In this document: one piece after another, positions 11,813 through 39,076 of the stretch
Position numbering within the stretch: the stretch's first letter is position 1
How the letters are laid out: each line of letters starts with the position of its first letter
NCBI GenBank assembly: GCA_016195565.1
Contig: JACPZK010000006.1
Coordinates: 30,900-94,899, forward strand
Reading direction: 5' to 3'
From: Nitrospirota bacterium
GTDB taxonomy: Bacteria > Nitrospirota > Thermodesulfovibrionia > Thermodesulfovibrionales > UBA1546
Length of the DNA stretch: 64,000 bases
The notes under the pieces: generated by a model
Told to the model about the DNA's origin: nothing
Database searches by the model: none
Seen by the model: the letters and a program-made list of their open reading frames with translations, nothing else
Program-made: the position numbers and the translations under genes

Positions 11813-11813
11813 A

Positions 11814-13313: not shown

Positions 13314-13325
13314 TTATAGATGTAT

Positions 13326-15871: not shown

Positions 15872-15873
15872 GA

Positions 15874-16116: not shown

Positions 16117-16165
16117 ATGATTGCTCTCTTTTCCGATTTAACGTCTATCCATAAACAAAGATTTT

Positions 16166-16237
16166 GTCATTCCCCGGCTTGACCGGGGAATCCAGAACAT
16201 GTTGAAAATCATGGATTCCCGCCTTCGCGGGAATGAC
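16166..16237. repeat. miniature palindromic repeat, family B (termini GTCATTCC / GGAATGAC), 72 bp, two hairpins
   Basis: GTCATTCCCCGGCTTGACCGGGGAATCC...GGATTCCCGCCTTCGCGGGAATGAC. A related copy lies at 46236-46313. It fills the ACP-1 / KS-like spacer. Confidence 0.8.
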
Positions 16238-16255
16238 GAATTTTATACTGTCTTT

Positions 16256-17323: not shown

Positions 17324-17326
17324 TTA

Positions 17327-18496: not shown

Positions 18497-18512
18497 TTAA
18501 ACTCGCCTTCGT

Positions 18513-19436
18513 TCATTTTATATTATATATGTCCAGCCCTTGGTCTATTGTTACAATCTTCATATCTGGATAGCTGGAGTGCGCATAGTCGATGAGTTCT
18601 CCAAGCTCTTCAATTTCATTGTATAGTATTTCAATTAGATAAGAGGTCGCCCCGCTGGCTTGACCAGCGATGGTGTCTCCTGTATGAGGTGTTCCTGATA
18701 CAGGGACATAATACAGCCATGAAAAAAGCTCTTTGCTGTATCTGCCTCTCGCACCTGAAGGGCTGAATAGGAGTTCTTCTCCGGGCAGGAAAGAGCCGCT
18801 GTTGCCGGGAGAAACTCTGACTTTGATATCGATATTATGATGGTAGATGATAAGCCATTTCCTCTCAATAAACGCTATGTCGATAAGCGCCTTCATCTTT
18901 TTTGTATTGTGGCTGAAGGAGTAGGATTTAAGTTCATATCTGTCCAATTCTGCAGGGTTCAGCATACTCCGTCCTCCCCTTGCAGACCTGTAATATTTGC
19001 TCACAATATCTTTAACATGACTGTTATTCTTATTATAAGGGTAGACTATGTTTTTAACTTTGATACCCAAGCCTTCAAGAGCTGCCTTCGATGCAGATAA
19101 TTCGGATTCGATCTGCTTATCATCAAGGCTTTTAAGGTCAGGATGCGACACAGTATGGCTCATTATCTCGAAACCATCATTCTGAAGTTCCTGTAGCTGG
19201 GAAATGCTCAGATGATTTTTCGTGTTTAACCAGCCTGTAGTAATTGCAAAACCTGCTGTTGCATTATGTTGTTTAAATACCTCTTTTGCAATAGAATAAT
19301 CCGTATCGTTCCCGTCGTCAAAAATAAAGGTGAGCAAAGGGACAAACCCCTTTTCCTGAGAGGAATCTTTTCTGCCAAGGCTGCTGCAAGAAGATATCAG
19401 CAAGACAGCTATGACAAAGGTTATAAATTTCTTCAT
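18513..19436 (-). CDS. polysaccharide deacetylase (NodB homology) lipoprotein
   Basis: Signal peptide with lipobox LLISSC; TFIFDDGNDTDY and MSHTVSHPDL NodB-type motifs. Confidence 0.75.
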   Translation of the reverse strand: MKKFITFVIAVLLISSCSSLGRKDSSQEKGFVPLLTFIFDDGNDTDYSIAKEVFKQHNATAGFAITTGWLNTKNHLSISQLQELQNDGFEIMSHTVSHPDLKSLDDKQIESELSASKAALEGLGIKVKNIVYPYNKNNSHVKDIVSKYYRSARGGRSMLNPAELDRYELKSYSFSHNTKKMKALIDIAFIERKWLIIYHHNIDIKVRVSPGNSGSFLPGEELLFSPSGARGRYSKELFSWLYYVPVSGTPHTGDTIAGQASGATSYLIEILYNEIEELGELIDYAHSSYPDMKIVTIDQGLDIYNIK

Positions 19437-19642
19437 TTTATTCTTTCAAATACACATGGCAATTTTAAAATAAATTTCCACTAAATTGTAACCGCATCCT
19501 GTCAGTAATACTTCTTAATAAACTTGTCTTAGCGTATAAGAATACTGAAATTCAGGAGCAGCTGTGATAGAAAAACAATATACATTCGTTTATTATGTGT
19601 TTTAAGTCCGGTCCTTTGACGGTGTTGAAATGATTTTTCAAG

Positions 19643-21028
19643 TCAACATAGCCTTGAAGATGTCCCCCCTTCTGAATGAGGAGTTCTTGCCAGAGATTTT
19701 GATTCTTCTTTTAATACTGCATCAATAATATAATCACAAACATCCTCAACGAAATAAGCGCCATATTTCGTCAAGTTTATGGCCCCGCCCTCCTGCTTAA
19801 GACACCCATATTCGCTAAGCCTTGAAAACAGCGAAGAAAAAACATCAAGGGGGTCCGCAGTAAATCTGTCCTGGAACTGCTTTATATCGAGGCCTCTTTT
19901 CACTTGAATGTTGAGCAAAAGCGACCGGTACATTTGCTCTCTTGGCGTAAGAGAAATATACCTGCCGATAGGCAGCCCCTCCTTTCTGATAATATTTGAA
20001 TACACAGAAAGCTCTTCATGCTTGTCGTAGCAAATCGTCTTGGTATACGATCGCGCCCGTGAACCGAGCGCTATGATAGGCATTTCCTTTAACCAATGAT
20101 ATCTGTATCCCCATTGTTTATCATCAGTGAATCGTCCATTTTGCTCATATCCATTTGCGCTCATCCATTCTTGTGTTATACACACCATTTGAAAAAGCGT
20201 GTCATTGTCAACAACAAGGCCGGGATTGTCCTTATACAGCTTGACAACAAGAGGGTTTACTATTTCATGCCTGATATATTCGACTGAATCCGGACGTATC
20301 CCTCCTAATATCTCAAGATCTTTTTTTACACCTTCGATAGTCTGCCCGGGAAGTCCTGTCATCATATCAATGTTTATTGACATACCAGCGTCCTGAACAT
20401 CTTTAACAATCCTTTCAATCTGGCCCTCGGTATTTTTCCTGTTACACAGTAGAAGCACCTTTTGGTCAAAGGTCTGACAACCGATACTTAATCTGGTTAT
20501 GCCGATATCACCTAATTCCCTTATTCTTTGTTTGTCAGACAAAGTGGATGGATGCGCTTCAGAAGTAACACTACAGTTTTCAGATAAATCTATACATGAT
20601 GAGAGCTTATTCAATATAAGCTTAATATCATAGTTAGAAAATGATGTAGGGGTCCCGCCGCCAAGATATATGCCTTTTGCCTTCTTGCCCTTAAAAAGTC
20701 CATACTTCGATAAAAGTTCAATCTCTTTCAGTAAATTAATTAAATAATCCTCTTGAGCTTTCTTATCTGTCTTGTGAGGGAAAGAATTACAGAACAAACA
20801 TTCAGAAAAGCAGAAAGGGAGGTGGACATACAACAATATTTCTTCTTCTATCAAACTCTCTTTTACTTTTTCAAGAAAGCTGTCTACCTGTGATGGTGCA
20901 AGTATTTTAAACCTGTGAGGAATAAACAGGTCCGGCTGGCTCTTTGTGTAATCTGCAGAACCATAAAAGAGTTCATTTCTTATGACGTTTAGCACTTCAT
21001 TTTCTTCCATACGATCAAACTCACCCAT
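19643..21028 (-). CDS. HemN-like (class C) radical SAM enzyme
   Basis: LYVHLPFCFSECLFC cluster motif and YLGGGTPTSF, both typical of the HemN/coproporphyrinogen-oxidase-like family. Confidence 0.85.
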   Translation of the reverse strand: MGEFDRMEENEVLNVIRNELFYGSADYTKSQPDLFIPHRFKILAPSQVDSFLEKVKESLIEEEILLYVHLPFCFSECLFCNSFPHKTDKKAQEDYLINLLKEIELLSKYGLFKGKKAKGIYLGGGTPTSFSNYDIKLILNKLSSCIDLSENCSVTSEAHPSTLSDKQRIRELGDIGITRLSIGCQTFDQKVLLLCNRKNTEGQIERIVKDVQDAGMSINIDMMTGLPGQTIEGVKKDLEILGGIRPDSVEYIRHEIVNPLVVKLYKDNPGLVVDNDTLFQMVCITQEWMSANGYEQNGRFTDDKQWGYRYHWLKEMPIIALGSRARSYTKTICYDKHEELSVYSNIIRKEGLPIGRYISLTPREQMYRSLLLNIQVKRGLDIKQFQDRFTADPLDVFSSLFSRLSEYGCLKQEGGAINLTKYGAYFVEDVCDYIIDAVLKEESKSLARTPHSEGGTSSRLC

Positions 21029-21059: not shown

Positions 21060-21353
21060 TTAAGTCCGGCCTTTTGTATTCTCATAAACATGGTTCGCAA
21101 GGGTATCTATGGAATAAAATATTTCCTTTCCCTTATTCATGTCCTTCACCTCAATGCCAAAATTACGCTGGAGAAGCACGACTATCTCAACAGCGTCAAG
21201 GGAATCGAGACCAAGACCTTCGCCGAATAAAATTTCATCATCTTTGATGTCTTCAGGGTTAATATCTTCGAGTGACAGGTCGTTCACAAGCATCTCCTTT
21301 AAATCCTTCCTCAATTTTGCCAATCCTGCTGATTTGTTTTCTTCCATCGCCAC
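21060..21353 (-). CDS. acyl carrier protein (ACP-2)
   Basis: 97 aa with GLGLDSLDAVE motif. Confidence 0.85.
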   Translation of the reverse strand: MAMEENKSAGLAKLRKDLKEMLVNDLSLEDINPEDIKDDEILFGEGLGLDSLDAVEIVVLLQRNFGIEVKDMNKGKEIFYSIDTLANHVYENTKGRT

Positions 21354-21385: not shown

Positions 21386-22291
21386 TTAACTCTTCCCTTC
21401 CCATATATCGCCGAACACAAACCACTGGAACGGATACAGCGCAGCATAATTATCAAGCACACCCGCAAACTCCTGAACGCAGTTCCTGACCTTTTCATTT
21501 TTTTCAGTCTTTGTGCCTTGAACAGGCCCGATAATATGAGATACGTCTACGATATATTTTTTCGCGGAAAGTCTGGCAGACCAGAGAACAACTACCGGAC
21601 ACTCAGCAGCTGCCGCTATGCTGAAGGCCCCGTGAGGCAGTTTCACCCTGTCTCCCATAAGAACTGCTTCCGTGAAATTCTGGCCATAGCTGCGGTCTCC
21701 CATGATGGATACCAGGCATCCTTGATCAATCACACTCATGATCTCAACAACTCCTCCAAGAAAATTCTCCGAGGAAATAATCCTGATGCTTCCCTGTTCA
21801 CTGTCGATATTGAGGGCATCCTTAACTGCGGCGTTCTCTTCAGGCCTCATCACTAAATAAACCGTCCTGCCCAGTTTTTCGAGCGCTGTCATAGCCACCT
21901 GCCAGTTACCGACATGAGCGGTAAGCAGTATGATCCCCTTGCGGCTCTCCCCTAAAAGGGAGTTTAGTTTATCATATCCGTTGAGTTCGATGTCAAACCC
22001 GCCCAGGCCTGAGATAAGGTAGTGCCGATCTATGAGATTCTTACCCTGGTTGATAAATATCAGGTACACTCCCAGTATCCGGCGCAAAAAACCGTATCCC
22101 CTGAAACGTCTTCTGATATAGGCCATACTCGAGGCCACAGCAGAACGGTCAAACGCCAAATAATAGAGGCCGACAAAATACAGCAGGCCGTATGCTCCAG
22201 ACAGGCCGAACAACCTGAGGGCAGCCCTGAAGATCGCCATCCCCAGCCTGTTCCCCCTCTTTTTTATTTCCTCTGTTTTACCCGGGTTCAT
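21386..22291 (-). CDS. lysophospholipid/lipid A-type acyltransferase (HtrB/LpxL-like LPLAT)
   Basis: N-terminal TM segment, LTAHVGNWQVA (HxxNW motif region). Start placed at ATG 22291 (MNPGKTEE); the track's 22360 start would overlap the GT2 gene by 83 nt. Confidence 0.7.
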   Translation of the reverse strand: MNPGKTEEIKKRGNRLGMAIFRAALRLFGLSGAYGLLYFVGLYYLAFDRSAVASSMAYIRRRFRGYGFLRRILGVYLIFINQGKNLIDRHYLISGLGGFDIELNGYDKLNSLLGESRKGIILLTAHVGNWQVAMTALEKLGRTVYLVMRPEENAAVKDALNIDSEQGSIRIISSENFLGGVVEIMSVIDQGCLVSIMGDRSYGQNFTEAVLMGDRVKLPHGAFSIAAAAECPVVVLWSARLSAKKYIVDVSHIIGPVQGTKTEKNEKVRNCVQEFAGVLDNYAALYPFQWFVFGDIWEGKS

Positions 22292-23462
22292 TGAGACCCC
22301 TTCGCCTTCTGAAGGCAGAGGCCACAAAATACACAACGCTGCCCGTAAGAAGCGCGGCAAGCGGCGCTACAATAAGAGACCCCAGAAACCATTCTATCAG
22401 TCTGTCAGAGAATTGCTTAAACACTGTCGCAAAAGATATATCCGAAAGCCAATGGCCCCAGCGGAGGAAATAACCGACCTCGATGCAAAGCGCGGGGACA
22501 AAGGGGGGCATGCAGATATGCTGGGCATTGACCGCAACAACTTTATTCAGTTTAAGCTGGGTGGCTACATACAAAATTACGATCGTATGAAAAAAGAAGA
22601 TAGGCAGCACACCGAAGAAAATACCCACAGCCGCCGCAGAGGCCAGCCCGCCAGGCGTTACGTTTTCCCTTAATGACATTTTGATGAACTTTCCGGGGTG
22701 ACGCAGCAGCGATAGTTCAGTGCCTTTTTTAACAACAAGTCTTTTATGAGGGAAAGGGAGGAGGCGTCTTCCTACAAGCATTGCATGTGTATGCGAGATG
22801 CGAAGATTATCCAGAAAAGGCCTGAAACTCGATACCCTTTCCTCTGGTTTGGGATAGTAAACACTAATCGGTACTGTTCTCAGACAGAGCCCTGCCCAGA
22901 CCGCCCTTGCCAATACCTCTGCCTCAAAATCATAATGCGAGCCCCTGAACTTCATCTGCCTGAGATGCTTTATTGGATAGGCACGGAACCCGCTCTGACA
23001 ATCATCGGTATATACACCTGTTTCAATGCGCAACCAGAAGTTTGCGAATTTTCTTCCGAACCGGCTTTTTTCCGGAACGTTTTCAGTGTTGAAATCCCTG
23101 CTGCCGATAATAACAGAGGCATCATCTTCATTGATGAGGGGAAGGAATTTCCTGATATCTTCAGGCTTGTGCTGCCCGTCTCCGTCAATAGTTATCATGT
23201 ACTTTCCGCCGCGCGAGTCTATATATTCCGCCGCAGTCAATATGGCGCGACCCTTGCCCATATTTTTATCGTGTTTCAACAGAACAACATCAAGACCGGA
23301 CAATAGTTTTGAAATATCTGCATCATTACTGCCGTCGTCAACTACCAGCACATTCTTCAGGATTGAACGGCAGCCTGAAGCAATGTCCCTGACTGTAGCG
23401 CCATTGTTATAAACAGGCACAACACACCAGATATGGTCCGTAAAGTTATTGGCCTGCAGCAT
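22278..23462 (-). CDS. family 2 glycosyltransferase with C-terminal membrane (DUF2062-like) domain
   Basis: VVPVYNNG, VVDDGSND, ITIDGDGQH; the C-terminal ~130 aa are hydrophobic helices. Confidence 0.8.
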   Translation of the reverse strand: MLQANNFTDHIWCVVPVYNNGATVRDIASGCRSILKNVLVVDDGSNDADISKLLSGLDVVLLKHDKNMGKGRAILTAAEYIDSRGGKYMITIDGDGQHKPEDIRKFLPLINEDDASVIIGSRDFNTENVPEKSRFGRKFANFWLRIETGVYTDDCQSGFRAYPIKHLRQMKFRGSHYDFEAEVLARAVWAGLCLRTVPISVYYPKPEERVSSFRPFLDNLRISHTHAMLVGRRLLPFPHKRLVVKKGTELSLLRHPGKFIKMSLRENVTPGGLASAAAVGIFFGVLPIFFFHTIVILYVATQLKLNKVVAVNAQHICMPPFVPALCIEVGYFLRWGHWLSDISFATVFKQFSDRLIEWFLGSLIVAPLAALLTGSVVYFVASAFRRRRGLNEPG

Positions 23463-24819
23463 GCCGCTCCCTTTTTTTAGCCTTTGCCCCGGGAATCAGC
23501 ATGTCCCACATTGTTCCGGAATAGCCCAGTTTATGAAGCATCCTGAGACTGCTGTCCACAGCATCAGGAGGAAAAATACAATGCCTGATCTTTGAGAAGG
23601 CCTCAGTCAGAGTATCTTCCAGCCATTTTCTGTCAACCAGTGGAGAGATATAGTAAACCGGTTTCAGCATACCGTTGTCAGGAGAGAGCAGCTTTTCTCT
23701 TAATGCTATCTGCGCCAGTAAGGTATTGGGCAGAATTCTTATTCCCATGAATATGAATGATACAGATTTTTCGAGTCCCTTAACATTCTCTATACCTTCA
23801 TAGACAGTCTCTTTTGTCTCACCGGGGCCGCCGAACATAAAATAATGTGATGTTGCTATTTCGTATCTGGCGAACAGATCATTGCATTCTACAATGTCCT
23901 GAAAAGAGAATTTCTTGCCGAGTTTGCGCAAGGTAATATCACACGCAGCATCAGAACCTATTTCAACAGCAATAAGGCCGGTCGCTTTCATCAGCCCTAC
24001 GATTTCATCGTTCAAGCCCTCTGGTTTAAAAAATCCTGTCCAGGGAAGATTGATGTTTCGCTTTCTCATCTCCTCTATCACATCCAGATACGCCCCTTCA
24101 GAGTCATTGAATACAGAGTCAATAAAGAAAATATATTTTGCCTTGTGCTTGTCCCTGAGCAATTCGATATCATCGACAACCAGACGCGGTTCTCTTTTGC
24201 GGATGCTGTCTCCCTCCAGAACAGGATAGGAACAGTAAATACATTTTTGCGTACATCCGCGTTTTGTCTGTATCGAGGCTATATTTCCGCTATGAAGATA
24301 ATACTTCATCAACTCGTCGTCATACCTGGCTGAAACAATCTCTGCCCCCGTAAGCCTTATCTCCGGGCCTATCAGTCTTTCCTCAGGATATATCCCCGCA
24401 GCAGCATTATCCGCAAAATTTATTGCCAGCCTTTCACCTTCTCCTACGATACCGTAGTCCGCGCCTGTTTCTTTTAATATTAATTCCGGAACAAGTGAAA
24501 AGCCTGCACCACCGAGTATAACCTTTACCTCAGAGACTTCTTTTGCCTTCTTCACAATTTCCTTCACGATATCTATGTAGTACTGCTCATTCATGAAATT
24601 GACGTTATCGATGTTCCGGACCGAAATACCTATCAGCCCGGGACCGAATGCCCCAATCTCCTGCGCGAGTGCATCGAGGGAATTATTCTGCTGAAGGAAA
24701 TCAAACTGGCGCACCTCATGGCCTGCCCCTGCCAAGGCAGAGGCTATCATACTCAGGCCGAGCGGATATATAGGGTATGGAGACATGGTTATATTAGATG
24801 ATATCAGGAGTATCTTCAT
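23446..24819 (-). CDS. B12-binding domain radical SAM enzyme (class B)
   Basis: MKILLISSN...PGLIGISVRN B12-binding-type N-terminus; CTQKCIYC cluster motif. Confidence 0.85.
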   Translation of the reverse strand: MKILLISSNITMSPYPIYPLGLSMIASALAGAGHEVRQFDFLQQNNSLDALAQEIGAFGPGLIGISVRNIDNVNFMNEQYYIDIVKEIVKKAKEVSEVKVILGGAGFSLVPELILKETGADYGIVGEGERLAINFADNAAAGIYPEERLIGPEIRLTGAEIVSARYDDELMKYYLHSGNIASIQTKRGCTQKCIYCSYPVLEGDSIRKREPRLVVDDIELLRDKHKAKYIFFIDSVFNDSEGAYLDVIEEMRKRNINLPWTGFFKPEGLNDEIVGLMKATGLIAVEIGSDAACDITLRKLGKKFSFQDIVECNDLFARYEIATSHYFMFGGPGETKETVYEGIENVKGLEKSVSFIFMGIRILPNTLLAQIALREKLLSPDNGMLKPVYYISPLVDRKWLEDTLTEAFSKIRHCIFPPDAVDSSLRMLHKLGYSGTMWDMLIPGAKAKKRERHAAGQ

Positions 24820-26096
24820 TCGGATCTCTCTCCTTTTTTATTCCCCTTCCAGCCATCGCCCCTGAGTCTCGTCCGCTTATATGTGCCTTCTGCCTTTTCC
24901 TTTTCGAGCACCTTTAAAAAAAGCTGTGCCATCCTTACTTCCTGACTGCAGTCTTTGTAAAAGGTATTCCATGCATAATAATACATCTCCTGCAGTTTAT
25001 CTACGCTCATCAGTGCCGGCTTAAAGACCACCTCTCCGCCTGTGTAATGTACCCAGTCATTGTGAAGCAACCTTCCTTCGTCTTCCAGTGTCTTCCTTAT
25101 GGGAGTGTGCGGGAAAGGAGTCAGAATGGTAAACTCGGCAAGGTCAAGATTTATCTCAAGGAGGAAATCCACAAGCCTTTTAATATAATCCTCATCGTGA
25201 TTATCCATACCGAGGATTATCGTGCCCTCAACCCCTATGCCGCGCTCCTGAAGCCGCTTCACACGATTTCTTATATGGTCAGAGGTGTCAAATATCGCCT
25301 GATATACATACCAGCAGCCGGCCTTCACAGCCAGATCCAGTATCTCATCATCATCCTTTATTGGATGAGATATCCATTTTTTCTTAAGCGGTATAAGGGC
25401 ACGGAACAATTCCTTCTCCCAGTTGTCATCCTGCGCCATAGAATTATCCACAAAAAATAAGCGGTTATTATTTATTCCTTCAAGTTCTTTTATAACTGAA
25501 TTTATGTCCCTTGGCCTGAACTTCCTGCCTCCAAGAAAAGGAGTGCAGCAGGGAAAGCAATTGAACCTGCACCCTCTGGAAGCGTGGATAAGGTCGACCA
25601 TCTGCACCCCGCGGTAGTTATATAACTCCCGGTCCAGAATACTTCTTCTGGCCGGACCTATCAGCTTTGTATCAGGGAAATCCATCAGGTAGTTGTAGAC
25701 CTTCTTTAATTTCTTGTTCTGCAGATCTGATATAACCTCTCCAAAACGGCCCTCTGCTTCACCGAGGAAAACAGAGTCAGCGTGCTTCATGGTTTCTTCA
25801 TGATGAAGCATTGTCCCAATGCCGCCGAAGATGACAGGTATACCCTCTGCCCTGTACCTGTCAGCAATCTCCCAGCCTCTCGGTATCTGGCAGGTGAGCA
25901 TAGCGGATATGGCAACAAGATCGGCCTTTTCTTTAAAGTCCGGTTCCTGCACATTCTCATCACAAAAAGATAGCTCTATGTTGTCCGGAACAGCAGCCGC
26001 AAAACAGACCGGGCCATGCGGAGGGAGATGAAACTCAGTCTGCCTGCTCAACTTAGGCCATTTTGGATAAATAAGTTTTATTTTCACTTTTAACAC
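24816..26096 (-). CDS. B12-binding domain radical SAM enzyme (class B)
   Basis: ADLVAISAMLT...VIFGG N-terminal domain; ASRGCRFNCFPC cluster motif; GTG start. Confidence 0.8.
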   Translation of the reverse strand: MLKVKIKLIYPKWPKLSRQTEFHLPPHGPVCFAAAVPDNIELSFCDENVQEPDFKEKADLVAISAMLTCQIPRGWEIADRYRAEGIPVIFGGIGTMLHHEETMKHADSVFLGEAEGRFGEVISDLQNKKLKKVYNYLMDFPDTKLIGPARRSILDRELYNYRGVQMVDLIHASRGCRFNCFPCCTPFLGGRKFRPRDINSVIKELEGINNNRLFFVDNSMAQDDNWEKELFRALIPLKKKWISHPIKDDDEILDLAVKAGCWYVYQAIFDTSDHIRNRVKRLQERGIGVEGTIILGMDNHDEDYIKRLVDFLLEINLDLAEFTILTPFPHTPIRKTLEDEGRLLHNDWVHYTGGEVVFKPALMSVDKLQEMYYYAWNTFYKDCSQEVRMAQLFLKVLEKEKAEGTYKRTRLRGDGWKGNKKGERSE

Positions 26097-26761
26097 TTCC
26101 CTTTCTGCATCATTAAAAACTCTTCTGCCATCTCAAGCAGGCTAATTTCTTTTTCTATTACAGACATTGCTTTCGAAATGTCACATAAGACCGGGCTCTC
26201 AGGTATAGGATTTTTTTTGAAAACAAAATACATTGCCTCATCTTTGTTGTTTATGCCGGCCACAACCGACTGACTCTCTTTAAGCAGCAGCATATCTTCA
26301 GCAGTCCTAATCACGAGCGGCAAAGTCTCGTGACCTGAAGTCATATAGAACAAAGGCCCCTGAAGGCCGAAATGTATAGCAGCCTCAGCAAGAGGACTGG
26401 TTGGAAGCGTGTAAATAAAGAGATTGCCGCGCGACAATTTTCTGCCGCTGACCAGATAGTCCTTAAAATAATCAATGTCTGATTCAAGAGAACCGTCAGT
26501 ATTCGTGCCTATAATTCCCATATCCTTTTTATTGTCAGATGAATATGAATCACCTGCATCCTTCAGCGCAAGTGCAGCAGCATAACAGACCATCTTCGAA
26601 ACATTATCCAGCCGCCCGAAATTCTTGAAAGGATACGAGAATATCCCATTCCTCGACAGCCCGTCGAAAGAAGTTGTATCACTATAACGAATACGCATGT
26701 CTTGCATTACACACATATACTCCTCTTTATCTATCCATCCTATTCCGCAAAGCGCAATCAT
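26090..26761 (-). CDS. short KS N-terminal-like protein without catalytic Cys (CLF-like partner)
   Basis: 223 aa; AALALKDAG...GIIGTNTDGS...FGLQGPLFYMTSGHET (no Cys at the KS active-site position); ATGA overlap with the upstream KS gene. Confidence 0.55.
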   Translation of the reverse strand: MIALCGIGWIDKEEYMCVMQDMRIRYSDTTSFDGLSRNGIFSYPFKNFGRLDNVSKMVCYAAALALKDAGDSYSSDNKKDMGIIGTNTDGSLESDIDYFKDYLVSGRKLSRGNLFIYTLPTSPLAEAAIHFGLQGPLFYMTSGHETLPLVIRTAEDMLLLKESQSVVAGINNKDEAMYFVFKKNPIPESPVLCDISKAMSVIEKEISLLEMAEEFLMMQKGKC

Positions 26762-27906
26762 CCTAACACCAAAGCAGCATTTATTCCGCCAAAACCAGCA
26801 TTAGTCATAACACCGATTGAATTATCAGGTATCAAACGCTCACTGGTTGAAACCCATCCTTCAGCATCCATGTCAGCTTCTTTTAAATTCACAGTAGGAG
26901 GTACTTTTCCATCTCTCAGCGCCCGCATCGCAATTATCATCTCAACAAGACCGGAAGCAGCCATAGTATGGCCTATTCCTCCTTTAATAGAATATACCGG
27001 CTTTTTATCTGTGAATACAGCCTTAAAGGCCCTCATCTCCATCGAGTCATTATAAACCGTGCCTGTCCCATGGGCAGAGATGAAACCAATATCTTTATCA
27101 TCAGCGCCGGCAGACAACAGAGTTTTTTTTAAAGCTAATATCAATCCCTCGCTGCCGCGTGCAGGCCCGGTCATATGGTTGGCATCATCGCTCAATCCCC
27201 ATCCGAGCACCTCACCTGTTATCTCTCTGTTTTCCTTGCGGGCCCTCGCTTCGCTCATAAGCAGCACAAAAGCAGCAGCCTCTCCAACGCTCAATCCGTT
27301 TCTGTTTTTATCAAAAGGCATAGCTGAAAACTTATCAAGCGCCATGAGTGAAGAAAAACCTGAAAAGACAAATTCAGTCACACTGTCACATGCAATAACA
27401 AGCACGCATTCCGTTCTTCCGCATTTTATCATTGCACAAGCCCCGGCAACTGCTGCTGCTGCAGAGGAGCAGGCAGCTGAAATAATCATCCCTTTATCCT
27501 TTGTGCCTGCAATTGAAGAGACCTTTTCGAGAAAAACGGACTGGCTGTTTCCCTGAATATTGTTTTGGCCTTTCAGTATCTTCTTTTCCAAAAGGTCTAT
27601 CTCACCTTTTGTTGAAGCAACTATAAGACTGGCGTCATCAGGGATTGCTTCCTTATACTTCTCGAATAAAGAAACGAGCATCTGCTCAACCAATGAGTTT
27701 TTTCCAAGATACTCAAGCCCTTCTATAGTCGCCGCATATTCTGATTGAAATGCACTCGCATCAAATCTTCTTAATTTTGAGATAGCTGTCCGGCCTGCAA
27801 GGATATTTTCCCAGCAGGCATCTGTACCATTGCCATATGGTGTGATCATGTCACTGGCAACAGCAACAACCTTTATTATGTTTTCTGGAATTCGCCTGCT
27901 CTCCAC
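26758..27906 (-). CDS. beta-ketoacyl-ACP synthase
   Basis: ISAACSSAAAAV (Cys), SAHGTGT, IGHTMAASG; apparent GTG start. Confidence 0.85.
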   Translation of the reverse strand: MESRRIPENIIKVVAVASDMITPYGNGTDACWENILAGRTAISKLRRFDASAFQSEYAATIEGLEYLGKNSLVEQMLVSLFEKYKEAIPDDASLIVASTKGEIDLLEKKILKGQNNIQGNSQSVFLEKVSSIAGTKDKGMIISAACSSAAAAVAGACAMIKCGRTECVLVIACDSVTEFVFSGFSSLMALDKFSAMPFDKNRNGLSVGEAAAFVLLMSEARARKENREITGEVLGWGLSDDANHMTGPARGSEGLILALKKTLLSAGADDKDIGFISAHGTGTVYNDSMEMRAFKAVFTDKKPVYSIKGGIGHTMAASGLVEMIIAMRALRDGKVPPTVNLKEADMDAEGWVSTSERLIPDNSIGVMTNAGFGGINAALVLG

Positions 27907-28358
27907 CTGTTATGGCACCTCTCCAGTAATGCGGGTAAGACTATGCATGCCTCCCCGGTTTTTGCATCGGTCAATAATTGCACAGTATATCCTGACACAG
28001 CAAGGGTCCCGTCCATTTTGTAAAGACCATATTCCGTATTCAGCCTGGCGCCTTCATGCCAGATCAGTGAGGCCCTGGCAATAAACTCCTCGTCAAGAAA
28101 AAGGGACCGGTAGTAATCTATATGTAATTCGACTATCGGGGCGCGCAATCCTGTCTCGTAGAATTCCTTATATGTAAGCCCGCATATCCTACCCAACAGC
28201 TCAGCAGCTTCTTCAAAGTATAAAGGGTACCTTCCGTACCAGACAATGCCCATAGGATCAGCTTCGCTGAAATGAACGCGCCTCAGGCGCTCAGCAACAA
28301 TAGGGGCAGGTGCGTCATCGCCTGTTTCAAAATAAGACTTTCTCTTTCTCGGTCTCAT
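27876..28358 (-). CDS. 4HBT/YbgC-type hotdog thioesterase
   Basis: VHFSEADPMGIVWYGRYPLYFEEA matches the 4HBT catalytic-Asp region. Start placed at ATG 28358, after the upstream stop. Confidence 0.7.
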   Translation of the reverse strand: MRPRKRKSYFETGDDAPAPIVAERLRRVHFSEADPMGIVWYGRYPLYFEEAAELLGRICGLTYKEFYETGLRAPIVELHIDYYRSLFLDEEFIARASLIWHEGARLNTEYGLYKMDGTLAVSGYTVQLLTDAKTGEACIVLPALLERCHNRWRAGEFQKT

Positions 28359-28362
28359 CGTT

Positions 28363-28746
28363 TTATTCTTTCCCCTGATCAAAACTGCCTTTTAATTTCA
28401 TCTCAGCCACGGCCTTGCCATTCCTGCTGACAGACGCCTTAACCACAAAAGCACTGTTAGCGTCCTTTATCCCGCGGCAGACGCAAATGATTTCTTCAGA
28501 AGGAAAAACAGGAGCAAGGAATTTTACAGATACTATCTCTTTAAGCAATACTGATTTCCCCGTATATTTTTCTATCATCGTGGTGACACACTGTATCTGG
28601 CAGACACCCGGCAATACTTTCTCCTCCGGGAAATGTCCCTGAAAGCCGAGAAAATCTTCAGGGAATATAAAATAGGCAGTCAATACCCCTTCGTCCCCTG
28701 ATCCCAGTCCGGCCATGTATTTTTCTATTTGTTTTTTTATACTCAA
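28363..28746 (-). CDS. FabZ/FabA-like 3-hydroxyacyl-ACP dehydratase (hotdog)
   Basis: FLGFQGHFPEEKVLPGVCQIQ matches the dehydratase His motif (x-G-H-F-P...P-G-V). Confidence 0.75.
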   Translation of the reverse strand: MSIKKQIEKYMAGLGSGDEGVLTAYFIFPEDFLGFQGHFPEEKVLPGVCQIQCVTTMIEKYTGKSVLLKEIVSVKFLAPVFPSEEIICVCRGIKDANSAFVVKASVSRNGKAVAEMKLKGSFDQGKE

Positions 28747-29423
28747 TCCGAGATTTCCTTTAGTCTTACTATCAGTCTGTAGCCGTATTTATAATTCTTT
28801 AAAATAGTCCCGCCAGGATATATCTTGCCGTCCCTGCTTTGATATTCATAAAAAGAAACCCGCCATACAGGGCTCCCGTTCTCATAATATGTTTTTTCCT
28901 TTAAATATTGGTCCTGTCCTGAGAAAACATATTCAGCTGTCCCTTCTCCTTCTTTCTGCCTGAAGACAACAGCGAATTTCTCCTTTGTTGCTTCAGCCCA
29001 GTCTGAGGGAACCAGGTCAAAAGATATACGTTTGATATCTTCACCTACCGCCTTTGTAAAGTTGCCCTTTGAAGTAAATTCCGAAAGGGCAAAGCTGGTA
29101 TTTATACTGTCCTTGTCAATTGATATTTCGAAAAGCTTCATTCCCATCTGGTTTATACAGGCAAGGGTACAGGTCCTTTTCGCGGTATCAACATCTATAA
29201 ATCCTATGCCGGAAAATGTCCTCAAATTATACTCAAAGACAATTGTGTTTAGCAAACGGGAGCGCTCAGGAAGACTGCCTTTAAACCTTTCTCTTACAGC
29301 AGCAGGATCAACGGAGGCATAAGACTGATCAAGCTCTTTCTGAAACGAAATGCTCTCGCACCCGATTATGAGGAACAGAATGCAGAGAATTACAGCTCTC
29401 CCAACTAATGACATTAAGCTCAT
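28743..29423 (-). CDS. lipoprotein of unknown function (same position as the lipoprotein gene next to the exporter in aryl-polyene loci)
   Basis: Start at ATG 29423 gives the signal peptide MSLMSLVGRAVILCILFLIIGC (lipobox) and an ATGA overlap with the MMPL stop. Confidence 0.6.
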   Translation of the reverse strand: MSLMSLVGRAVILCILFLIIGCESISFQKELDQSYASVDPAAVRERFKGSLPERSRLLNTIVFEYNLRTFSGIGFIDVDTAKRTCTLACINQMGMKLFEISIDKDSINTSFALSEFTSKGNFTKAVGEDIKRISFDLVPSDWAEATKEKFAVVFRQKEGEGTAEYVFSGQDQYLKEKTYYENGSPVWRVSFYEYQSRDGKIYPGGTILKNYKYGYRLIVRLKEISD

Positions 29424-31804
29424 GCGCCCTCCTTTTGTTTCCGTGTTGACAGCATAATGCAGAACGCGGGCACAACGAACATAGCAGAAAGGTATCCTGC
29501 TGACATGCATATCACCATCGCCATACCGGTTGAAGAAAAGGCCGGATGTTTGGCAAAAAGCAGGGCGCCTGCACCGATAATGTTTGTAGCAGCAGACATA
29601 GAAACGACAAACGCGGTTCCCATAGTTAAATTATTCCTGTAATCATATGTTCTGCCGATACCGTAGTCCACTATAACACCGCTTGTAATGATCGCTGCAA
29701 CAATGTTCACCACATTGAGAGGAAAACCAAGGAGCGACATAAGACCGGTTAACCATATCATTCCGGTTAAAACAGGGATGAGGGCAATAGCAGTCTCCCT
29801 GATGTTCCTGAAAAATAAATACGTCAGGACAATATTGAATATTACAGCAAGCGGTATAAGGAGCTTAGCTTCCTTTGCTGTGAAACTTGATATTGATTCG
29901 GACATGGCACGGCCTGAGACAATGAACGATCCCGGATAATCCCTGCTCAGGTCTGACATGGTTTTTATAAATTCCTTTTCATCAGGGAAAAATGACAGCA
30001 TCCTGTATCCCTCAGGCCTTTCCTGAACAAACCTCTCTTTTACATTATCTATGAACCCGTTATTAACATTGTTTTTATCCACAGCTTTATAAAGGTTATC
30101 AAAAAAAGGAGAAAAGGCATTTTCTGAAAAATCGTACTTCCCCGACTCACTCTTAATTAGAGCTTTAAGCCTCGCCTCCCTTCCCTGCTTCCAGAAATTA
30201 TTCCAGTCTTCAACATTTTTTCTTCTCGTCTCTTCAGAAGACCAGAACATGGCCAAGCTCGAAAAACGCTCAGTATTCATGGATTCTGCAACCCTTTGGA
30301 ATATTGCGTCATTTGTTTTCATCGCCTCCTCAAAAGTACTGCCAGTAACCACAAAGATCGCCTGTCCACCCTTCCCTCCCCAGACCTCATGAAAGCTTTT
30401 TTCTGCATTTATCACCTCAGGCTCACTTCCGTCGAGCTGTTTGATATCACTTTCTATTCTGGTATTCAGTGACAGTATCGCAGCAGCAACAGTCAGAATA
30501 GCCCACAAGCCTATGCTCACATTTCTCAGCTTCGGGTTTTTTTCGAGCCTGTCCGCTATCCTCGGCTGTTTTATCTCAGGACATTTTTTCCAGGACAAGG
30601 TGAGGGGCAGGATAAAGAGCGCAAATAAGAGGGATATTACAATACACAGTATTGAGAAAAGGGCCAGTTGGTGGTATCCATGGATTTTTGAGAAGTAAAG
30701 GACATAAAATCCGAATGCCGAAGTTATAGCGTCAATGCATAAAAGTTTAGCGAGCTTCAGTGCCCGGGATGAGTCAGCGCCTTTTCTTGCTGAAATATAG
30801 ACCATGAGGCCGTAATCAACAGAGATACCTGCTATCGCAGTCCCGAATCCGATGACCAGATAGGAGAGTTTTCCTGCATAGACACTCGAAATATTGATCG
30901 CTATGGCTACCGCAATAAGCGGAATAACATATACCAGGACAACTCTCATGTCCCTGAAGACAGCAAAAAAAAGCAGGAGAAAAACGATAGAAACCATGAT
31001 CGACAGAAGACTGATATCCCGCTTAATGACCTTCTCGTTGCTGACAGTATGCCGGTGCCCGCTGATTACATCCGCTGAGATATACTTTGGTAACCGCCCG
31101 ATATTTTCTTCAAGTGCAGCCAGAAGCCTTTTGGAGTTAGGCCCGTCCGTTATCTTCACCGGCGTCTGAATGATCAGCATCGCATGACGGCCGTCACTGC
31201 TTATAAAATGGCCGTCTTCAACAGAGACGTCATACCCCATAGAAGCAGGAAGTGCCTTCAGCTTTTCCATGAGAATGAAGTTTATGCCGAGCGGGTCTGC
31301 CCTGTATAATGGCGTCATAAACACGCTCTCCGGCTTCAGAGACTGTATATAGATCCTCTTTAATTTTTCTGATACTGATGCAGCATTTATAAGACTGTCA
31401 ATAGAGGAAAGGTCTTTCTCAGTAAGGATCTGGGGGGCATAATTCAAAAAAAAACCATCCATCATATTCATGACGGAAAACCCTGTGGTCACCTTAGTGA
31501 ATAGAGGGGGAGATAGAGAGGCAGCCAGCTGATCTACTGCATTAAAAAGGTTCTTTTTTCCTGCATCATCAGTTGTGAGTGAAAAAGATACGATGATCTT
31601 GTCGGACAAATTTGAATCCCGCAGGAAATTCATGCTGCGGGTAATCTCTTCATCGGGCGGAAGCATCAGATCGATGTTGCCCTCGTAATGCACAAAGAAA
31701 AGCCCGGCTCCGGCTGTGATGTTAAGGAGGATTATGACAGAGAGAACGAACTTCTTGTTGGCCTTCAGGAAATCAGACAACAAAACAAAATACTTATCAA
31801 ACAC
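29420..31804 (-). CDS. MMPL/RND-superfamily lipid exporter
   Basis: 794 aa with two hydrophobic multi-helix bundles separated by large soluble loops, as in MMPL/RND-type exporters; GTG start overlapping the LolA-like stop. Confidence 0.75.
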   Translation of the reverse strand: MFDKYFVLLSDFLKANKKFVLSVIILLNITAGAGLFFVHYEGNIDLMLPPDEEITRSMNFLRDSNLSDKIIVSFSLTTDDAGKKNLFNAVDQLAASLSPPLFTKVTTGFSVMNMMDGFFLNYAPQILTEKDLSSIDSLINAASVSEKLKRIYIQSLKPESVFMTPLYRADPLGINFILMEKLKALPASMGYDVSVEDGHFISSDGRHAMLIIQTPVKITDGPNSKRLLAALEENIGRLPKYISADVISGHRHTVSNEKVIKRDISLLSIMVSIVFLLLFFAVFRDMRVVLVYVIPLIAVAIAINISSVYAGKLSYLVIGFGTAIAGISVDYGLMVYISARKGADSSRALKLAKLLCIDAITSAFGFYVLYFSKIHGYHQLALFSILCIVISLLFALFILPLTLSWKKCPEIKQPRIADRLEKNPKLRNVSIGLWAILTVAAAILSLNTRIESDIKQLDGSEPEVINAEKSFHEVWGGKGGQAIFVVTGSTFEEAMKTNDAIFQRVAESMNTERFSSLAMFWSSEETRRKNVEDWNNFWKQGREARLKALIKSESGKYDFSENAFSPFFDNLYKAVDKNNVNNGFIDNVKERFVQERPEGYRMLSFFPDEKEFIKTMSDLSRDYPGSFIVSGRAMSESISSFTAKEAKLLIPLAVIFNIVLTYLFFRNIRETAIALIPVLTGMIWLTGLMSLLGFPLNVVNIVAAIITSGVIVDYGIGRTYDYRNNLTMGTAFVVSMSAATNIIGAGALLFAKHPAFSSTGMAMVICMSAGYLSAMFVVPAFCIMLSTRKQKEGA

Positions 31805-36015: not shown

Positions 36016-36018
36016 TCT

Positions 36019-36285: not shown

Positions 36286-36308
36286 TCTTCCACCTCATCA
36301 GTATAATT

Positions 36309-39028: not shown

Positions 39029-39076
39029 ATAATTTTATATTTGCTCAGTGGAGCTGGAACTTTTAAAGACCAAATT

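What the first reader, a model, noticed from the sequence alone, without database searches (positions are those of the whole stretch)
23446..26096. Tandem, translationally coupled pair of B12-binding radical SAM paralogues between the KS/CLF pair and the GT2/LPLAT genes
SEEN: two adjacent ORFs (457 and 426 aa) each have an N-terminal B12-binding-type domain and a CxxxCxxC motif (CTQKCIYC; CRFNCFPC). They are joined by a 4-nt overlap and are themselves overlapped by the neighbouring CLF-like and GT2 genes. Their sequences are clearly diverged (different N-termini, no long identical runs), so this is not a recent duplication. INFERENCE: they probably perform two distinct, consecutive radical steps on an ACP- or lipid-bound intermediate, for example iterative methylation or C-C coupling.
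Basis: partly seen in the sequence, partly recalled or inferred. Interest (0 to 1): 0.6.

Follow-up and report, generated by a model that had tools for sequence, protein, structure and literature searches.

The report
Conserved coupled radical-SAM pair in lipid cluster
Two adjacent but only distantly related radical-SAM enzyme genes are a real pair, conserved across several anaerobic bacterial phyla inside a long-known lipid/polyketide gene cluster whose product is still unknown.

Summary
Two minus-strand genes, rS1 (23446-24819, 457 aa) and rS2 (24816-26087, probably 423 aa rather than 426), each have a Rossmann-type B12-like domain and a CxxxCxxC radical-SAM core. They share an ATGA overlap.

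They are not duplicates: 27% identity over 148 residues. rS1 belongs to the curated family TIGR04072 and resembles the sp2-carbon methylases BzaD and TsrM. rS2 is an orphan lineage, and its cobalamin binding is uncertain.

The host is an uncultured Nitrospirota bacterium. In 66 of 67 testable loci from Nitrospirota, Geobacterales, Desulfobacterales, Omnitrophota and others, rS2 sits directly upstream of rS1. The overlap is preserved in 71 of 78 junctions. With ACP1, rS2 is the most conserved protein of the cluster.

The cluster combines aryl-polyene/flexirubin-type genes (KS/CLF, dehydratases, FlxY-like ligase, LolA/MMPL/DUF3261, GT2, LPLAT) with six radical-SAM enzymes. It is the "ladderane-like" cluster type known since 2009 in bacteria that do not make ladderanes.

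The best reading is two distinct tailoring steps on an ACP-bound aryl/polyene intermediate. The chemistry is not shown. This is a new member of a known, uncharacterised kind, of moderate interest.

The parts
24816..26087 (-). rS2: orphan class-B-type radical SAM protein (423 aa from GTG 26087; maximal ORF reaches 26096). Rossmann B12-like domain, CRFNCFPC cluster motif, weak DUF4070 C-terminal domain.
   Evidence: no NCBIfam model above cutoff; 100% match to an NCBI protein named 'cobalamin B12-binding domain-containing protein [Nitrospirae bacterium]'; invariant C173/C177/C180, S61, G88-G89, G109-E110-x-E112; AF2 pLDDT 68.7; best PDB match AprD4, TM 0.64; median 75% identity over 70 loci.
23446..24819 (-). 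rS1: TIGR04072 'lipid biosynthesis B12-binding/radical SAM protein' (457 aa), CTQKCIYC cluster motif.
   Evidence: 618.9 bits vs cutoff 360; BzaD 201.9 bits; TsrM 122.9 bits; R68 aligns with TsrM Arg69; V236 aligns with TsrM Glu273; AF2 pLDDT 72.6; TsrM TM 0.78-0.80.
24816..24819 (-). ATGA stop/start overlap that couples rS2 to rS1.
   Evidence: The overlap is conserved in 71 of 78 junctions, as the 4-nt form in 64.
26758..27906 (-). KS1: active ketosynthase (Cys-His-His present), AmcF/FabF-like.
   Evidence: Syntenic in 56 loci.
26090..26761 (-). CLF1: truncated KS-like partner (223 aa, N-terminal half only, no active-site Cys).
   Evidence: CLF1 to rS2 overlaps in 42 of 64 loci.
22278..23462 (-). 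GT2 glycosyltransferase fused to DUF2062 (ApeJ-like). Overlaps the rS1 end by 17 nt.
   Evidence: rS1 to GT2 overlaps in 39 of 41 loci.
21386..22360 (-). Lipid A-type lysophospholipid acyltransferase (ApeD-like LPLAT).
21060..21353 (-). ACP1 (LGLDSLDAV). With rS2, the most conserved protein of the cluster.
   Evidence: median 75.0% identity.
27876..33972 (-). Aryl-polyene-type accessory block: 4HBT thioesterase, ApeI-like dehydratase, DUF3261, MMPL/HpnN-like exporter, LolA-like protein, and a radical SAM/SPASM domain fused to an ApeP-like dehydratase.
33959..39838 (-). Operon head: FlxY-like aryl/acyl-CoA ligase (470.6 bits, cutoff 520), PlsC acyltransferase, KS0 (FabF/B-like), CrtD-like FAD desaturase, SDR ketoreductase.
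8162..21028 (-). Downstream half of the cluster: HemN/ChuW-like radical SAM, polysaccharide deacetylase, KS2/CLF2, ACP2, condensation-like protein, FAD oxidoreductase, rS3 (HpnR-like B12 radical SAM), acyl-CoA ligase, rS4 (HpnJ-like B12 radical SAM), methyltransferase.

Best explanation
The two genes encode a conserved, co-translated pair of functionally distinct radical-SAM tailoring enzymes. They belong to a type II (KS/CLF plus ACP) polyketide/fatty-acid pathway of the aryl-polyene/flexirubin kind. That pathway builds an acyl or aryl-polyene chain on ACP1, attaches it to a lipid or glycolipid anchor (LPLAT, GT2-DUF2062) and exports it to the outer membrane (LolA-like, MMPL, DUF3261).

Shown:
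- The identity and domain make-up of both proteins.
- That they are not duplicates of each other.
- The invariant gene order KS1-CLF1-rS2-rS1-GT2-LPLAT-ACP1 and the conserved stop/start overlap, across Nitrospirota, Geobacterales/Desulfuromonadales, Desulfobacterales, Omnitrophota and others.
- That rS2 and ACP1 are the most constrained proteins of the cluster.

Inferred:
- rS1 (TIGR04072) is a cobalamin-dependent C-methyltransferase. Its nearest characterised relatives, BzaD and TsrM, methylate aromatic sp2 carbons. It keeps the TsrM lower-face arginine (R68) but not the glutamate that blocks SAM binding in TsrM (V236). It therefore most likely methylates an electron-rich sp2 carbon, on the aryl head group or the polyene, of the ACP- or pantetheine-tethered intermediate.
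- rS2 carries out a different radical step, not necessarily a methylation and possibly without cobalamin, on the same carrier-bound intermediate.
- The overlap ensures roughly equimolar synthesis of the two proteins.
- The product is not a ladderane.
For: - Family assignment: rS1 scores 618.9 bits against TIGR04072 (cutoff 360), BzaD 201.9, TsrM 122.9. rS2 reaches no model cutoff.
- Fold: rS1 matches TsrM with TM 0.78-0.80. rS2 matches AprD4 at 0.64 and TsrM at 0.55.
- Residue mapping: rS1 R68 (invariant) aligns with TsrM Arg69, and V236 with TsrM Glu273. The roles of those TsrM residues are taken from PMC8992657 and PMC13331322. BzaD is predicted to be a Csp2 methylase (PMC12931638).
- Synteny: rS2 is directly upstream of rS1 in 66 of 67 loci. 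The -4 overlap occurs in 64 of 78 junctions and some overlap in 71 of 78.
- Conservation ranking: rS2 75.3%, ACP1 75.0%, rS1 65.5%, other cluster proteins 44-66%.
- Aryl-polyene/flexirubin backbone: ApeI-like, ApeP-like, DUF3261, LolA, MMPL, DUF2062-GT2 and LPLAT; FlxY-like ligase at 470.6 bits; KS active and CLF inactive.
- Divergent relatives: a cluster carrying a 52%-identical rS2 homologue next to two ACPs also encodes an aromatic ammonia-lyase. A cluster with a 62%-identical rS2 homologue carries a TIGR04072 member (380 bits) about 3 kb away on the other strand.
- Precedent: class B enzymes acting on pantetheine-tethered substrates (CysS, TokK) appear among the structural matches.
Against: - No product or activity is known for any member of either family. 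The 2026 reviews still list the 'ladderane' radical-SAM enzymes as uncharacterised.
- rS1's scores to BzaD and TsrM are far below those families' cutoffs, so the sp2-methylation idea rests on nearest-neighbour homology only.
- The window encodes no source of an aromatic starter (no TAL or UbiC). The FlxY-like ligase is just below its cutoff.
- rS2's B12-domain score is marginal, and its best structural match does not bind cobalamin.
- No cobalamin riboswitch was found in the window.
- The AF2 models have only moderate confidence (pLDDT 69-73).
- rS2 homologues exist without rS1 nearby, so a physical complex is not required.
Confidence: 0.5

Rival explanations
1. Both enzymes are cobalamin-dependent radical methylases. 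They install successive methyl branches on unactivated sp3 carbons of a saturated ACP- or lipid-bound acyl chain, giving a branched-chain lipid (iterative or sequential methylation).
For: - Most characterised class B enzymes are C-methyltransferases (PMC12931638).
- Both proteins keep the Rossmann-domain S...GG...GExE motifs and the cluster cysteines.
- The window's other two B12 enzymes resemble the hopanoid lipid enzymes HpnR (a C-3 methylase, 239 bits) and HpnJ (181 bits).
- CysS and TokK give precedent for iterative methylation on pantetheinyl substrates.
Against: - rS1's closest relatives are sp2, not sp3, methylases.
- rS2 matches no methylase family above noise (at most 58 bits), and its best structural match is a non-cobalamin dehydratase.
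- The backbone genes (dehydratases without an enoyl reductase, a CrtD-like desaturase, an aryl-type ligase) point to unsaturated or aryl chains rather than saturated ones.
Confidence: 0.2
2. rS2 is not a cobalamin enzyme. It is an AprD4-like, B12-independent radical SAM enzyme with a degenerate Rossmann domain. It performs a redox-neutral rearrangement, dehydration or cyclisation of the carrier-bound chain, and only rS1 uses cobalamin.
For: - Best PDB match is AprD4 (E 1.5e-14, TM 0.64).
- AprD4 has a Rossmann-like domain but binds no cobalamin (PMC12931638).
- The Pfam B12-binding score is only 34.5 bits against a cutoff of 32.1.
- rS2 homologues function in clusters that lack rS1.
Against: - The NCBIfam AprD4 model scores only 31.5 bits against a cutoff of 500.
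- The sequence E-values to TsrM, MgmA (both cobalamin enzymes) and AprD4 are equal, around 1e-4.
- The canonical S61, G88-G89 and G109-E110-x-E112 positions are conserved across the wider DUF4070-type B12 radical-SAM relatives.
Confidence: 0.2
3. The pair builds strained carbocycles (cyclobutane/ladderane-type or cyclopropane-derived rings) from a polyunsaturated ACP-bound chain, as proposed for the homologous anammox clusters.
For: - The rS1 family is named rSAM_ladder_B12.
- The cluster type was first described as a candidate ladderane locus, with a phytoene-desaturase-like gene and non-canonical FabF genes (PMC2649909).
- Known non-methylating cobalamin radical-SAM enzymes all make or rearrange rings (PMC13598231).
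Against: - The pair occurs in Nitrospirota, Geobacterales, Desulfobacterales and Omnitrophota, none of which are known ladderane producers.
- Desulfotalea psychrophila has a syntenic cluster and contained no ladderanes (PMC2649909).
- No anammox protein appeared among the 120 listed relatives in any of the three searches.
- Heterologous expression of the anammox genes gave no product (PMC4790861).
Confidence: 0.07
4. The adjacency is incidental. One or both enzymes serve an unrelated (non-lipid) function and merely sit in the operon.
For: No functional data exist. rS1's nearest named relative, BzaD, acts in cobamide lower-ligand synthesis.
Against: - The order KS1-CLF1-rS2-rS1-GT2-LPLAT-ACP1 holds in 66 of 67 loci across phyla, with overlapping reading frames on both sides.
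- The BzaD score is under half the family cutoff, and there are no bza genes nearby.
Confidence: 0.02

Closest known systems
TIGR04072 / NCBIfam 'lipid biosynthesis B12-binding/radical SAM protein' (rSAM_ladder_B12), in the 'ladderane-like' FASII clusters of Rattray et al. 2009 (Kuenenia stuttgartiensis, Desulfotalea psychrophila, Geobacter, Pelobacter)
   Same: rS1 is a full-length member (618.9 bits vs cutoff 360). The window shares the described gene repertoire: several radical-SAM enzymes, a phytoene-desaturase-like FAD enzyme, canonical plus non-canonical FabF genes, a PaaK-type ligase, a glycosyltransferase, a polysaccharide-deacetylase-like gene, a SAM methyltransferase and ACPs.
   Different: - The host is an uncultured Nitrospirota/Thermodesulfovibrionia bacterium.
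- Orthology to specific Kuenenia genes (kuste3342/3343, 3608, 2803) could not be tested here.
- I found no paper in the searched library that describes the fixed rS2-rS1 coupling or rS2's extreme conservation. This is not a proof of absence.
- The family has no demonstrated function.
Aryl polyene (Ape) and flexirubin (Flx) type II PKS clusters of Gram-negative bacteria
   Same: - KS plus a short CLF-like partner.
- ApeI-like and ApeP-like dehydratases, a 4HBT thioesterase and an SDR ketoreductase.
- An LPLAT and a GT2-DUF2062.
- The LolA-like/MMPL/DUF3261 export trio.
- A FlxY-like ligase.
- A divergent relative cluster also carries an aromatic ammonia-lyase, as the flexirubin cluster does with FlxA.
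   Different: - Classical Ape/Flx clusters contain no radical-SAM enzymes. This one has six (four B12-type, one SPASM fused to a dehydratase, one HemN-like), plus a CrtD-like desaturase and a second KS/CLF/ACP set.
- It occurs in strict anaerobes.
- An aromatic starter is not demonstrated.
TsrM (tryptophan 2-C-methyltransferase) and BzaD (5-methoxybenzimidazole C-methylase), cobalamin-dependent Csp2 methylases
   Same: They are the best characterised sequence relatives of rS1, and TsrM is also its best structural match. rS1 conserves the SVRN(I/T)D loop, with an arginine at the TsrM Arg69 position.
   Different: - Scores are far below both family cutoffs (201.9 vs 450; 122.9 vs 500).
- TsrM's Glu273, which blocks SAM ligation, is Val in rS1, so radical chemistry is not excluded.
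- The genomic context is entirely different.
AprD4 (radical SAM 1,2-diol dehydratase) and the HpnJ/BchE-type DUF4070 B12 radical-SAM proteins
   Same: AprD4 is the best fold match for rS2. There are weak HMM similarities to HpnJ, BchE and TIGR04013, and a weak DUF4070 C-terminal domain hit.
   Different: All scores are 31-58 bits, against cutoffs of 251-578 bits. Beyond two close sequence clusters (62% and 52% identity), the next relatives drop to about 39% identity. rS2 is therefore its own tightly conserved orthogroup with no characterised member.

Membership tests
Class B (cobalamin-dependent) radical SAM enzymes | N-terminal Rossmann-type cobalamin-binding domain (PF02310) | tested here: met
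   rS1 scores 69.3 bits. rS2 scores 34.5 bits against a cutoff of 32.1, so it passes only marginally. The S...GG...GExE positions are conserved in both.
Class B (cobalamin-dependent) radical SAM enzymes | CxxxCxxC [4Fe-4S] motif in a radical SAM barrel | tested here: met
   C189/C193/C196 are invariant in 20 rS1 orthologues and C173/C177/C180 in 28 rS2 orthologues. The Pfam Radical_SAM score is 64.3 bits for rS1 but only 25.7 bits for rS2 (cutoff 29.5). Fold matches to TsrM, MgmA, TokK, CysS and OxsB.
Class B (cobalamin-dependent) radical SAM enzymes | Actual binding and use of cobalamin | not testable with these tools
   This needs purified protein. For rS2 it is in real doubt, because its best structural match, AprD4, binds no cobalamin.
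TIGR04072 lipid biosynthesis B12-binding/radical SAM protein | Whole-protein score at or above the curated cutoff of 360 bits | tested here: met
   rS1 scores 618.9 bits over model positions 1-442 of 443. rS2 scores 49.3 bits, rS3 74.6 and rS4 105.1, so none of those three is a member.
TsrM-type non-radical cobalamin methylase | Arginine under the cobalt (TsrM Arg69) | tested here: met
   rS1 R68, in the ISVRNID loop, aligns with Arg69 and is invariant in the alignment A1. rS2 has Met63 at the aligned position.
TsrM-type non-radical cobalamin methylase | Glutamate ligating the unique iron (Glu273), which prevents SAM cleavage | tested here: not met
   TsrM TDSEFN aligns with rS1 IDSVFN, so Glu273 corresponds to Val236, which is invariant. 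In addition, the TIGR04428 score of 122.9 bits is below its cutoff of 500.
BzaD (B12 lower-ligand biosynthesis) | Score at or above 450 bits and a bza operon context | tested here: not met
   The score is 201.9 bits. The neighbouring genes are KS/CLF/GT2/LPLAT/ACP.
Ladderane biosynthesis cluster of anammox bacteria | Occurs in ladderane-producing anammox Planctomycetota, and its genes are orthologous to the Kuenenia loci | tested here: inconclusive
   The host and all 80 related loci are non-anammox: Nitrospirota, Desulfobacterota-type lineages, Omnitrophota and others. One locus labelled Planctomycetales (L085) has Omnitrophota-like relatives. Kuenenia sequences could not be retrieved, so orthology was not tested.
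Ladderane biosynthesis cluster of anammox bacteria | The product contains concatenated cyclobutanes | not testable with these tools
   D. psychrophila, which has a syntenic cluster, lacked ladderanes (PMC2649909).
Aryl polyene / flexirubin-type type II PKS cluster | KS plus CLF-like partner, ACP, ApeI/ApeP-type dehydratases, ketoreductase and thioesterase | tested here: met
   Note that the Pfam ApeI-like (21.6 bits) and ApeP-like (23.2 bits) hits are below their gathering scores in my scan. They are listed without a weak mark for the called genes.
Aryl polyene / flexirubin-type type II PKS cluster | Anchor and export set: LPLAT, GT2-DUF2062, LolA-like, MMPL, DUF3261 | tested here: met
Aryl polyene / flexirubin-type type II PKS cluster | Aromatic acid starter activated by a dedicated ligase | tested here: inconclusive
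   The FlxY model scores 470.6 bits against a cutoff of 520. The window has no TAL or chorismate lyase. An aromatic ammonia-lyase is present only in the divergent relative cluster L086/L089.
AprD4 family radical SAM diol dehydratase (for rS2) | NF033070 score at or above 500 bits | tested here: not met
   The score is 31.5 bits. The similarity is at fold level only.

The most novel reading that the evidence does not exclude
rS2, the most conserved protein of the cluster, may be a new kind of radical-SAM enzyme that performs a ring-forming or C-C cross-linking reaction on an ACP-bound aryl-polyene. rS1 would then methylate the product. Together they would define an unrecognised class of radical-tailored outer-membrane lipids or pigments that is widespread in anaerobic Nitrospirota, Desulfobacterota-type lineages and Omnitrophota. 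This would also explain what the mis-named 'ladderane' clusters of non-anammox bacteria actually make.
Probability: 0.12. Interest if true: 0.8.

Novelty: new member of a known kind. Interest (0 to 1): 0.4.

Why it matters
Genome-mining tools label clusters of this type as "ladderane" in many anaerobic phyla (PMC9902471). Their product, and the roles of their radical-SAM enzymes, have been open questions since 2009.

This analysis adds three points:
- The seven-gene core KS1-CLF1-rS2-rS1-GT2-LPLAT-ACP1 is invariant.
- The previously unnamed rS2, not the curated TIGR04072 protein, is the most constrained enzyme.
- rS1 looks like an sp2-carbon methylase and sits on an aryl-polyene-type backbone.

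Together these narrow the experiments needed: which two genes to delete or co-express, and which substrate class and isotope label to try. The window itself is just one more example, from an uncultured organism, so it does not make the question easier to test than existing examples in cultured Desulfobacterota.

Tried and rejected
- **Recent tandem duplication.** Rejected: 27% identity over 148 aa, and each protein is as close to the window's other B12 enzymes as to its partner.
- **rS2 orthogroup taxonomically narrow.** I inferred this at first from the 50%-identity representative search. It was wrong. The group is broad but so conserved (72-92% across phyla) that it collapses into a few clusters.
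- **Auxiliary Fe-S cluster in rS2.** The extra invariant cysteines (C28, C66, C181, C258) suggested one. C28, C66 and C181 are not kept in the 62% and 52% homologues or in wider relatives, and C258 is not kept in P0241.
- **Link to anammox genes.** A third homologue search, seeded from the 'Planctomycetales' locus L085, returned Omnitrophota and Desulfobacterales relatives only. No Kuenenia sequence could be obtained.
- **Cobalamin riboswitch as indirect evidence of B12 use.** None was found; only one tRNA was detected.
- **Promoter/terminator scan of 19-28 kb.** Promoter-like sites were at chance level, and the terminator-like hits were short intragenic stems that I did not interpret.
- **Literature searches.** Searches for TIGR04072, for 'lipid biosynthesis B12-binding', and for a link between Desulfotalea hydrocarbons and OleA found nothing. 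My recollection that the Desulfotalea polyunsaturated hydrocarbons come from an Ole/Pfa pathway stays unverified and is not used.
- **CLF-like neighbour in L087.** The 221-aa ORF upstream of the rS2 homologue in L087 has no detectable similarity to CLF1.
- **Model coordinates.** These were not available for measuring distances, so no pocket or cofactor-site geometry was analysed.

Full report
**1. What is in the sequence**

The finding lies inside a roughly 31-kb run of co-directional minus-strand genes (8162-39838). The flanks are housekeeping genes: recA, cinA, gltX, glnS, tilS, recG, nusA and rimP.

The two ORFs are as described.
- **rS1** (23446-24819, 457 aa) has Pfam B12-binding (69.3 bits) and Radical_SAM (64.3 bits) domains and the motif CTQKCIYC.
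- **rS2** has a marginal B12-binding hit (34.5 bits, cutoff 32.1). Its Radical_SAM hit is below threshold (25.7 vs 29.5). It also has a weak DUF4070 hit and the motif CRFNCFPC.

The rS2 stop and rS1 start share ATGA, preceded by a purine-rich Shine-Dalgarno-like run. The GT2 gene starts 17 nt before the rS1 stop.

One correction is needed. Gene callers and essentially all orthologues (about 405-429 aa, mostly 418-423 aa, beginning MKIKLIYPKW) start rS2 at the GTG at 26087. That makes it 423 aa, starting 2 nt after the CLF stop. The 426-aa length and the overlap with CLF are properties of the maximal ORF only.

**2. The two proteins are not duplicates**

- Among the window's four B12-type radical-SAM proteins, all pairs are 22-27% identical. 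rS1/rS2 is the weakest pair (27% over 148 aa).
- Profile-profile alignment shows they share the same two-domain architecture, at 23% identity over 324 columns.
- rS1 is a clear member of the curated family TIGR04072, 'lipid biosynthesis B12-binding/radical SAM protein' (618.9 bits, cutoff 360). Its next-best models are BzaD (201.9 bits) and TsrM (122.9 bits).
- rS2 reaches no family cutoff; its best score is 58 bits.
- AlphaFold models of moderate confidence (pLDDT 72.6 and 68.7) match solved class B enzymes. rS1 matches TsrM best (TM 0.78-0.80). rS2 matches AprD4 best (TM 0.64), then TsrM, MgmA, MiaB and CysS.

**3. Source and distribution**

Proteins identical to rS1 and rS2 are annotated in an NCBI Nitrospirae MAG. 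The same genes occur on contigs assembled from sequencing runs SRR12113410-15.

A scan of one genome per species with an rS1 alignment confirmed 135 loci, of which the best 80 were kept. They come from:
- Nitrospirota/Thermodesulfovibrionia
- Geobacterales, Pelobacteraceae and Desulfuromonadales
- Desulfobacterales, including Desulfobacterium sp. N47
- Omnitrophota
- a Deferribacteres MAG and others

I ran tblastn with all 29 cluster proteins against these loci. Essentially the same gene order appears everywhere:

SPASM/ApeP - LolA - MMPL - DUF3261 - ApeI - TE - KS1 - CLF1 - rS2 - rS1 - GT2 - LPLAT - ACP1 - (HemN) - deacetylase - KS2 - CLF2 - ACP2 - ...

- rS2 lies immediately upstream of rS1 in 66 of the 67 loci with at least 1.3 kb of upstream DNA.
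- The one exception (L070) carries an rS1-like gene in a different context.
- The rS2/rS1 junction overlaps in 71 of 78 cases, as the 4-nt ATGA/GTGA form in 64.
- CLF1 to rS2 overlaps in 42 of 64 cases, and rS1 to GT2 in 39 of 41.
- Ranking proteins by median identity across loci puts rS2 (75.3%) and ACP1 (75.0%) at the top. rS1 follows at 65.5%, and the other cluster proteins lie at 44-66%.

My early reading, that rS2 is a narrow group, was wrong. The group is phylogenetically broad but so conserved that it collapses into a few 50%-identity clusters.

**4. Cluster context**

- KS0, KS1 and KS2 retain the Cys-His-His triad. CLF1 (N-terminal half only) and CLF2 lack it. Both ACPs have the DSL serine.
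- The accessory genes are those of aryl-polyene/flexirubin clusters: ApeI-like and ApeP-like dehydratases, a 4HBT thioesterase, an SDR, an LPLAT, GT2-DUF2062, LolA-like, MMPL and DUF3261. There is also a ligase that scores 470.6 bits on the FlxY model (cutoff 520).
- On top of this backbone sit six radical-SAM enzymes: rS1, rS2, the HpnR-like rS3, the HpnJ-like rS4, a SPASM enzyme fused to the ApeP-like dehydratase, and a HemN/ChuW-like enzyme. There is also a CrtD-like desaturase.
- This repertoire matches the 'ladderane-like' FASII clusters described by Rattray et al. 2009 in Kuenenia, Desulfotalea, Geobacter and Pelobacter (PMC2649909) and listed gene by gene in PMC4790861.
- antiSMASH-labelled 'ladderane' clusters have been reported in the same non-anammox phyla (PMC9902471).

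**5. Divergent relatives**

- A 62%-identical rS2 homologue (P0241) sits behind ApeP-like, SDR and LolA genes. A TIGR04072 member (380 bits; 32% identical to rS1) lies about 3 kb away on the opposite strand, together with ACPs, an ApeI-like dehydratase and two small radical-SAM genes.
- A 52%-identical homologue (P0242) directly precedes two ACPs, a KS-CLF fusion, a CrtD-like enzyme and an aromatic ammonia-lyase. No TIGR04072-type gene lies within 10 kb.

So the association of rS2-type enzymes with ACP-based, aryl-polyene-like pathways extends beyond the core orthogroup. The tight coupling to rS1 is a feature of the main cluster type, not an absolute requirement.

**6. Residue-level clues**

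In the phmmer alignment to TsrM:
- rS1's invariant ISVRNID loop places R68 at TsrM Arg69. In TsrM that residue blocks the lower cobalt face and favours heterolytic methyl transfer (PMC8992657, PMC13331322).
- TsrM's Glu273 ligates the unique iron and prevents SAM cleavage. The aligned residue in rS1 is the invariant Val236.

rS1 thus combines a TsrM-like cobalamin environment with an apparently free SAM-binding iron. BzaD, its closest named relative, is predicted to methylate an aromatic sp2 carbon as TsrM does (PMC12931638).

rS2 has Met63 at the position aligned with R68. It keeps the superfamily-wide S61, G88-G89 and G109-E110-x-E112 positions. Its additional cysteines are not conserved in more distant homologues, which argues against an auxiliary cluster. 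AprD4, its best fold match, does not bind cobalamin, so rS2's cofactor status is open.

**7. Interpretation**

*Shown:*
- A real, conserved, co-translated pair of distinct radical-SAM enzymes.
- It is embedded between the KS1/CLF1 condensing pair and the GT2/LPLAT/ACP1 anchoring genes of an aryl-polyene-type cluster.

*Inferred:*
- Both enzymes act on the ACP1-bound (or pantetheine-bound) chain. The CysS and TokK structures among the fold matches give precedent for class B enzymes acting on tethered substrates.
- rS1 is most likely a cobalamin-dependent C-methylase of an sp2 carbon, on the aryl head or the polyene.
- rS2 performs a separate step that is under very strong constraint.

Ladderane formation is unlikely. 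The pair occurs across non-anammox phyla, and the syntenic Desulfotalea cluster did not yield ladderanes. No member of either family has been characterised. Reviews and papers up to September 2026 still treat these enzymes as speculative.

**8. Verdict**

- The object is a new member, in an uncultured Nitrospirota genome, of a known but functionally unsolved cluster type, and rS1 belongs to an already curated family.
- The added value is threefold: the invariant seven-gene core, the conserved coupling, and the identification of rS2 as the most constrained enzyme.
- Interest is moderate (0.4). It would be high only if the pair proved to catalyse new ring-forming or cross-linking chemistry.

Noticed in passing
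window 32500-33972 (-): A radical SAM/SPASM domain (Radical_SAM 86.5 bits, SPASM 33.9 bits) is fused to a C-terminal ApeP-like hotdog dehydratase domain in a single 490-aa protein. This fusion is conserved in 40 related loci. It is an unusual combination of a radical enzyme with a polyketide dehydratase.
   Followed up: partly
window 19643-21028 (-): A HemN/ChuW-like (class C-type) radical SAM gene sits between ACP1 and the deacetylase gene. It is present in only 5 of the related loci (L007, L009, L010, L016, L030), at 75-92% identity. It therefore looks like an accessory insertion in a Nitrospirota subgroup.
   Followed up: partly
window 8162-19436 (-): The second half of the cluster holds a polysaccharide deacetylase, KS2 with an inactive CLF2, ACP2, a 445-aa protein with only a weak condensation-domain hit, a PF12831 FAD oxidoreductase, rS3 (HpnR-like, 239 bits), an acyl-CoA ligase, rS4 (HpnJ-like, 181 bits) and a class I methyltransferase. 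It is largely syntenic in other phyla.
   Followed up: partly
L070 6286-7638: This is the only locus where a TIGR04072-like gene (62% identical to rS1) is not preceded by rS2/KS1/CLF1. It is followed by the condensation-like gene, the FAD oxidoreductase and the ligase of the second sub-cluster. Upstream are ORFs with no Pfam hit apart from one DUF1232 protein.
   Followed up: partly
L086/L089 (contig SRR22746133_95069) and L087: These are divergent relatives of the cluster. They contain two small (about 330 and 365 aa) radical SAM proteins with no NCBIfam match, a KS-CLF fusion (723 aa), a PS-DH/ACPS fusion and an aromatic ammonia-lyase.
   Followed up: partly
window 52794-53564 (+): A TIR-domain protein (TIR_2, 81.4 bits) lies in the lowest-GC segment of the window (38.4% against about 44%). 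It may be a small defence or mobile insertion between housekeeping genes.
   Followed up: no
window 7442-8122 (+): A PagL-like lipid A 3-O-deacylase / outer-membrane beta-barrel gene is encoded divergently at the downstream end of the cluster, next to a tRNA at 6885-6958.
   Followed up: no
window 36015-36309 and 19436-19643: These are the only sizeable intergenic gaps (about 290 and 200 nt) within the otherwise overlapping or abutting minus-strand gene run. They could mark internal promoters that split the cluster into three transcription units. The simple promoter scan, which covered only the second gap, was at chance level.
   Followed up: no
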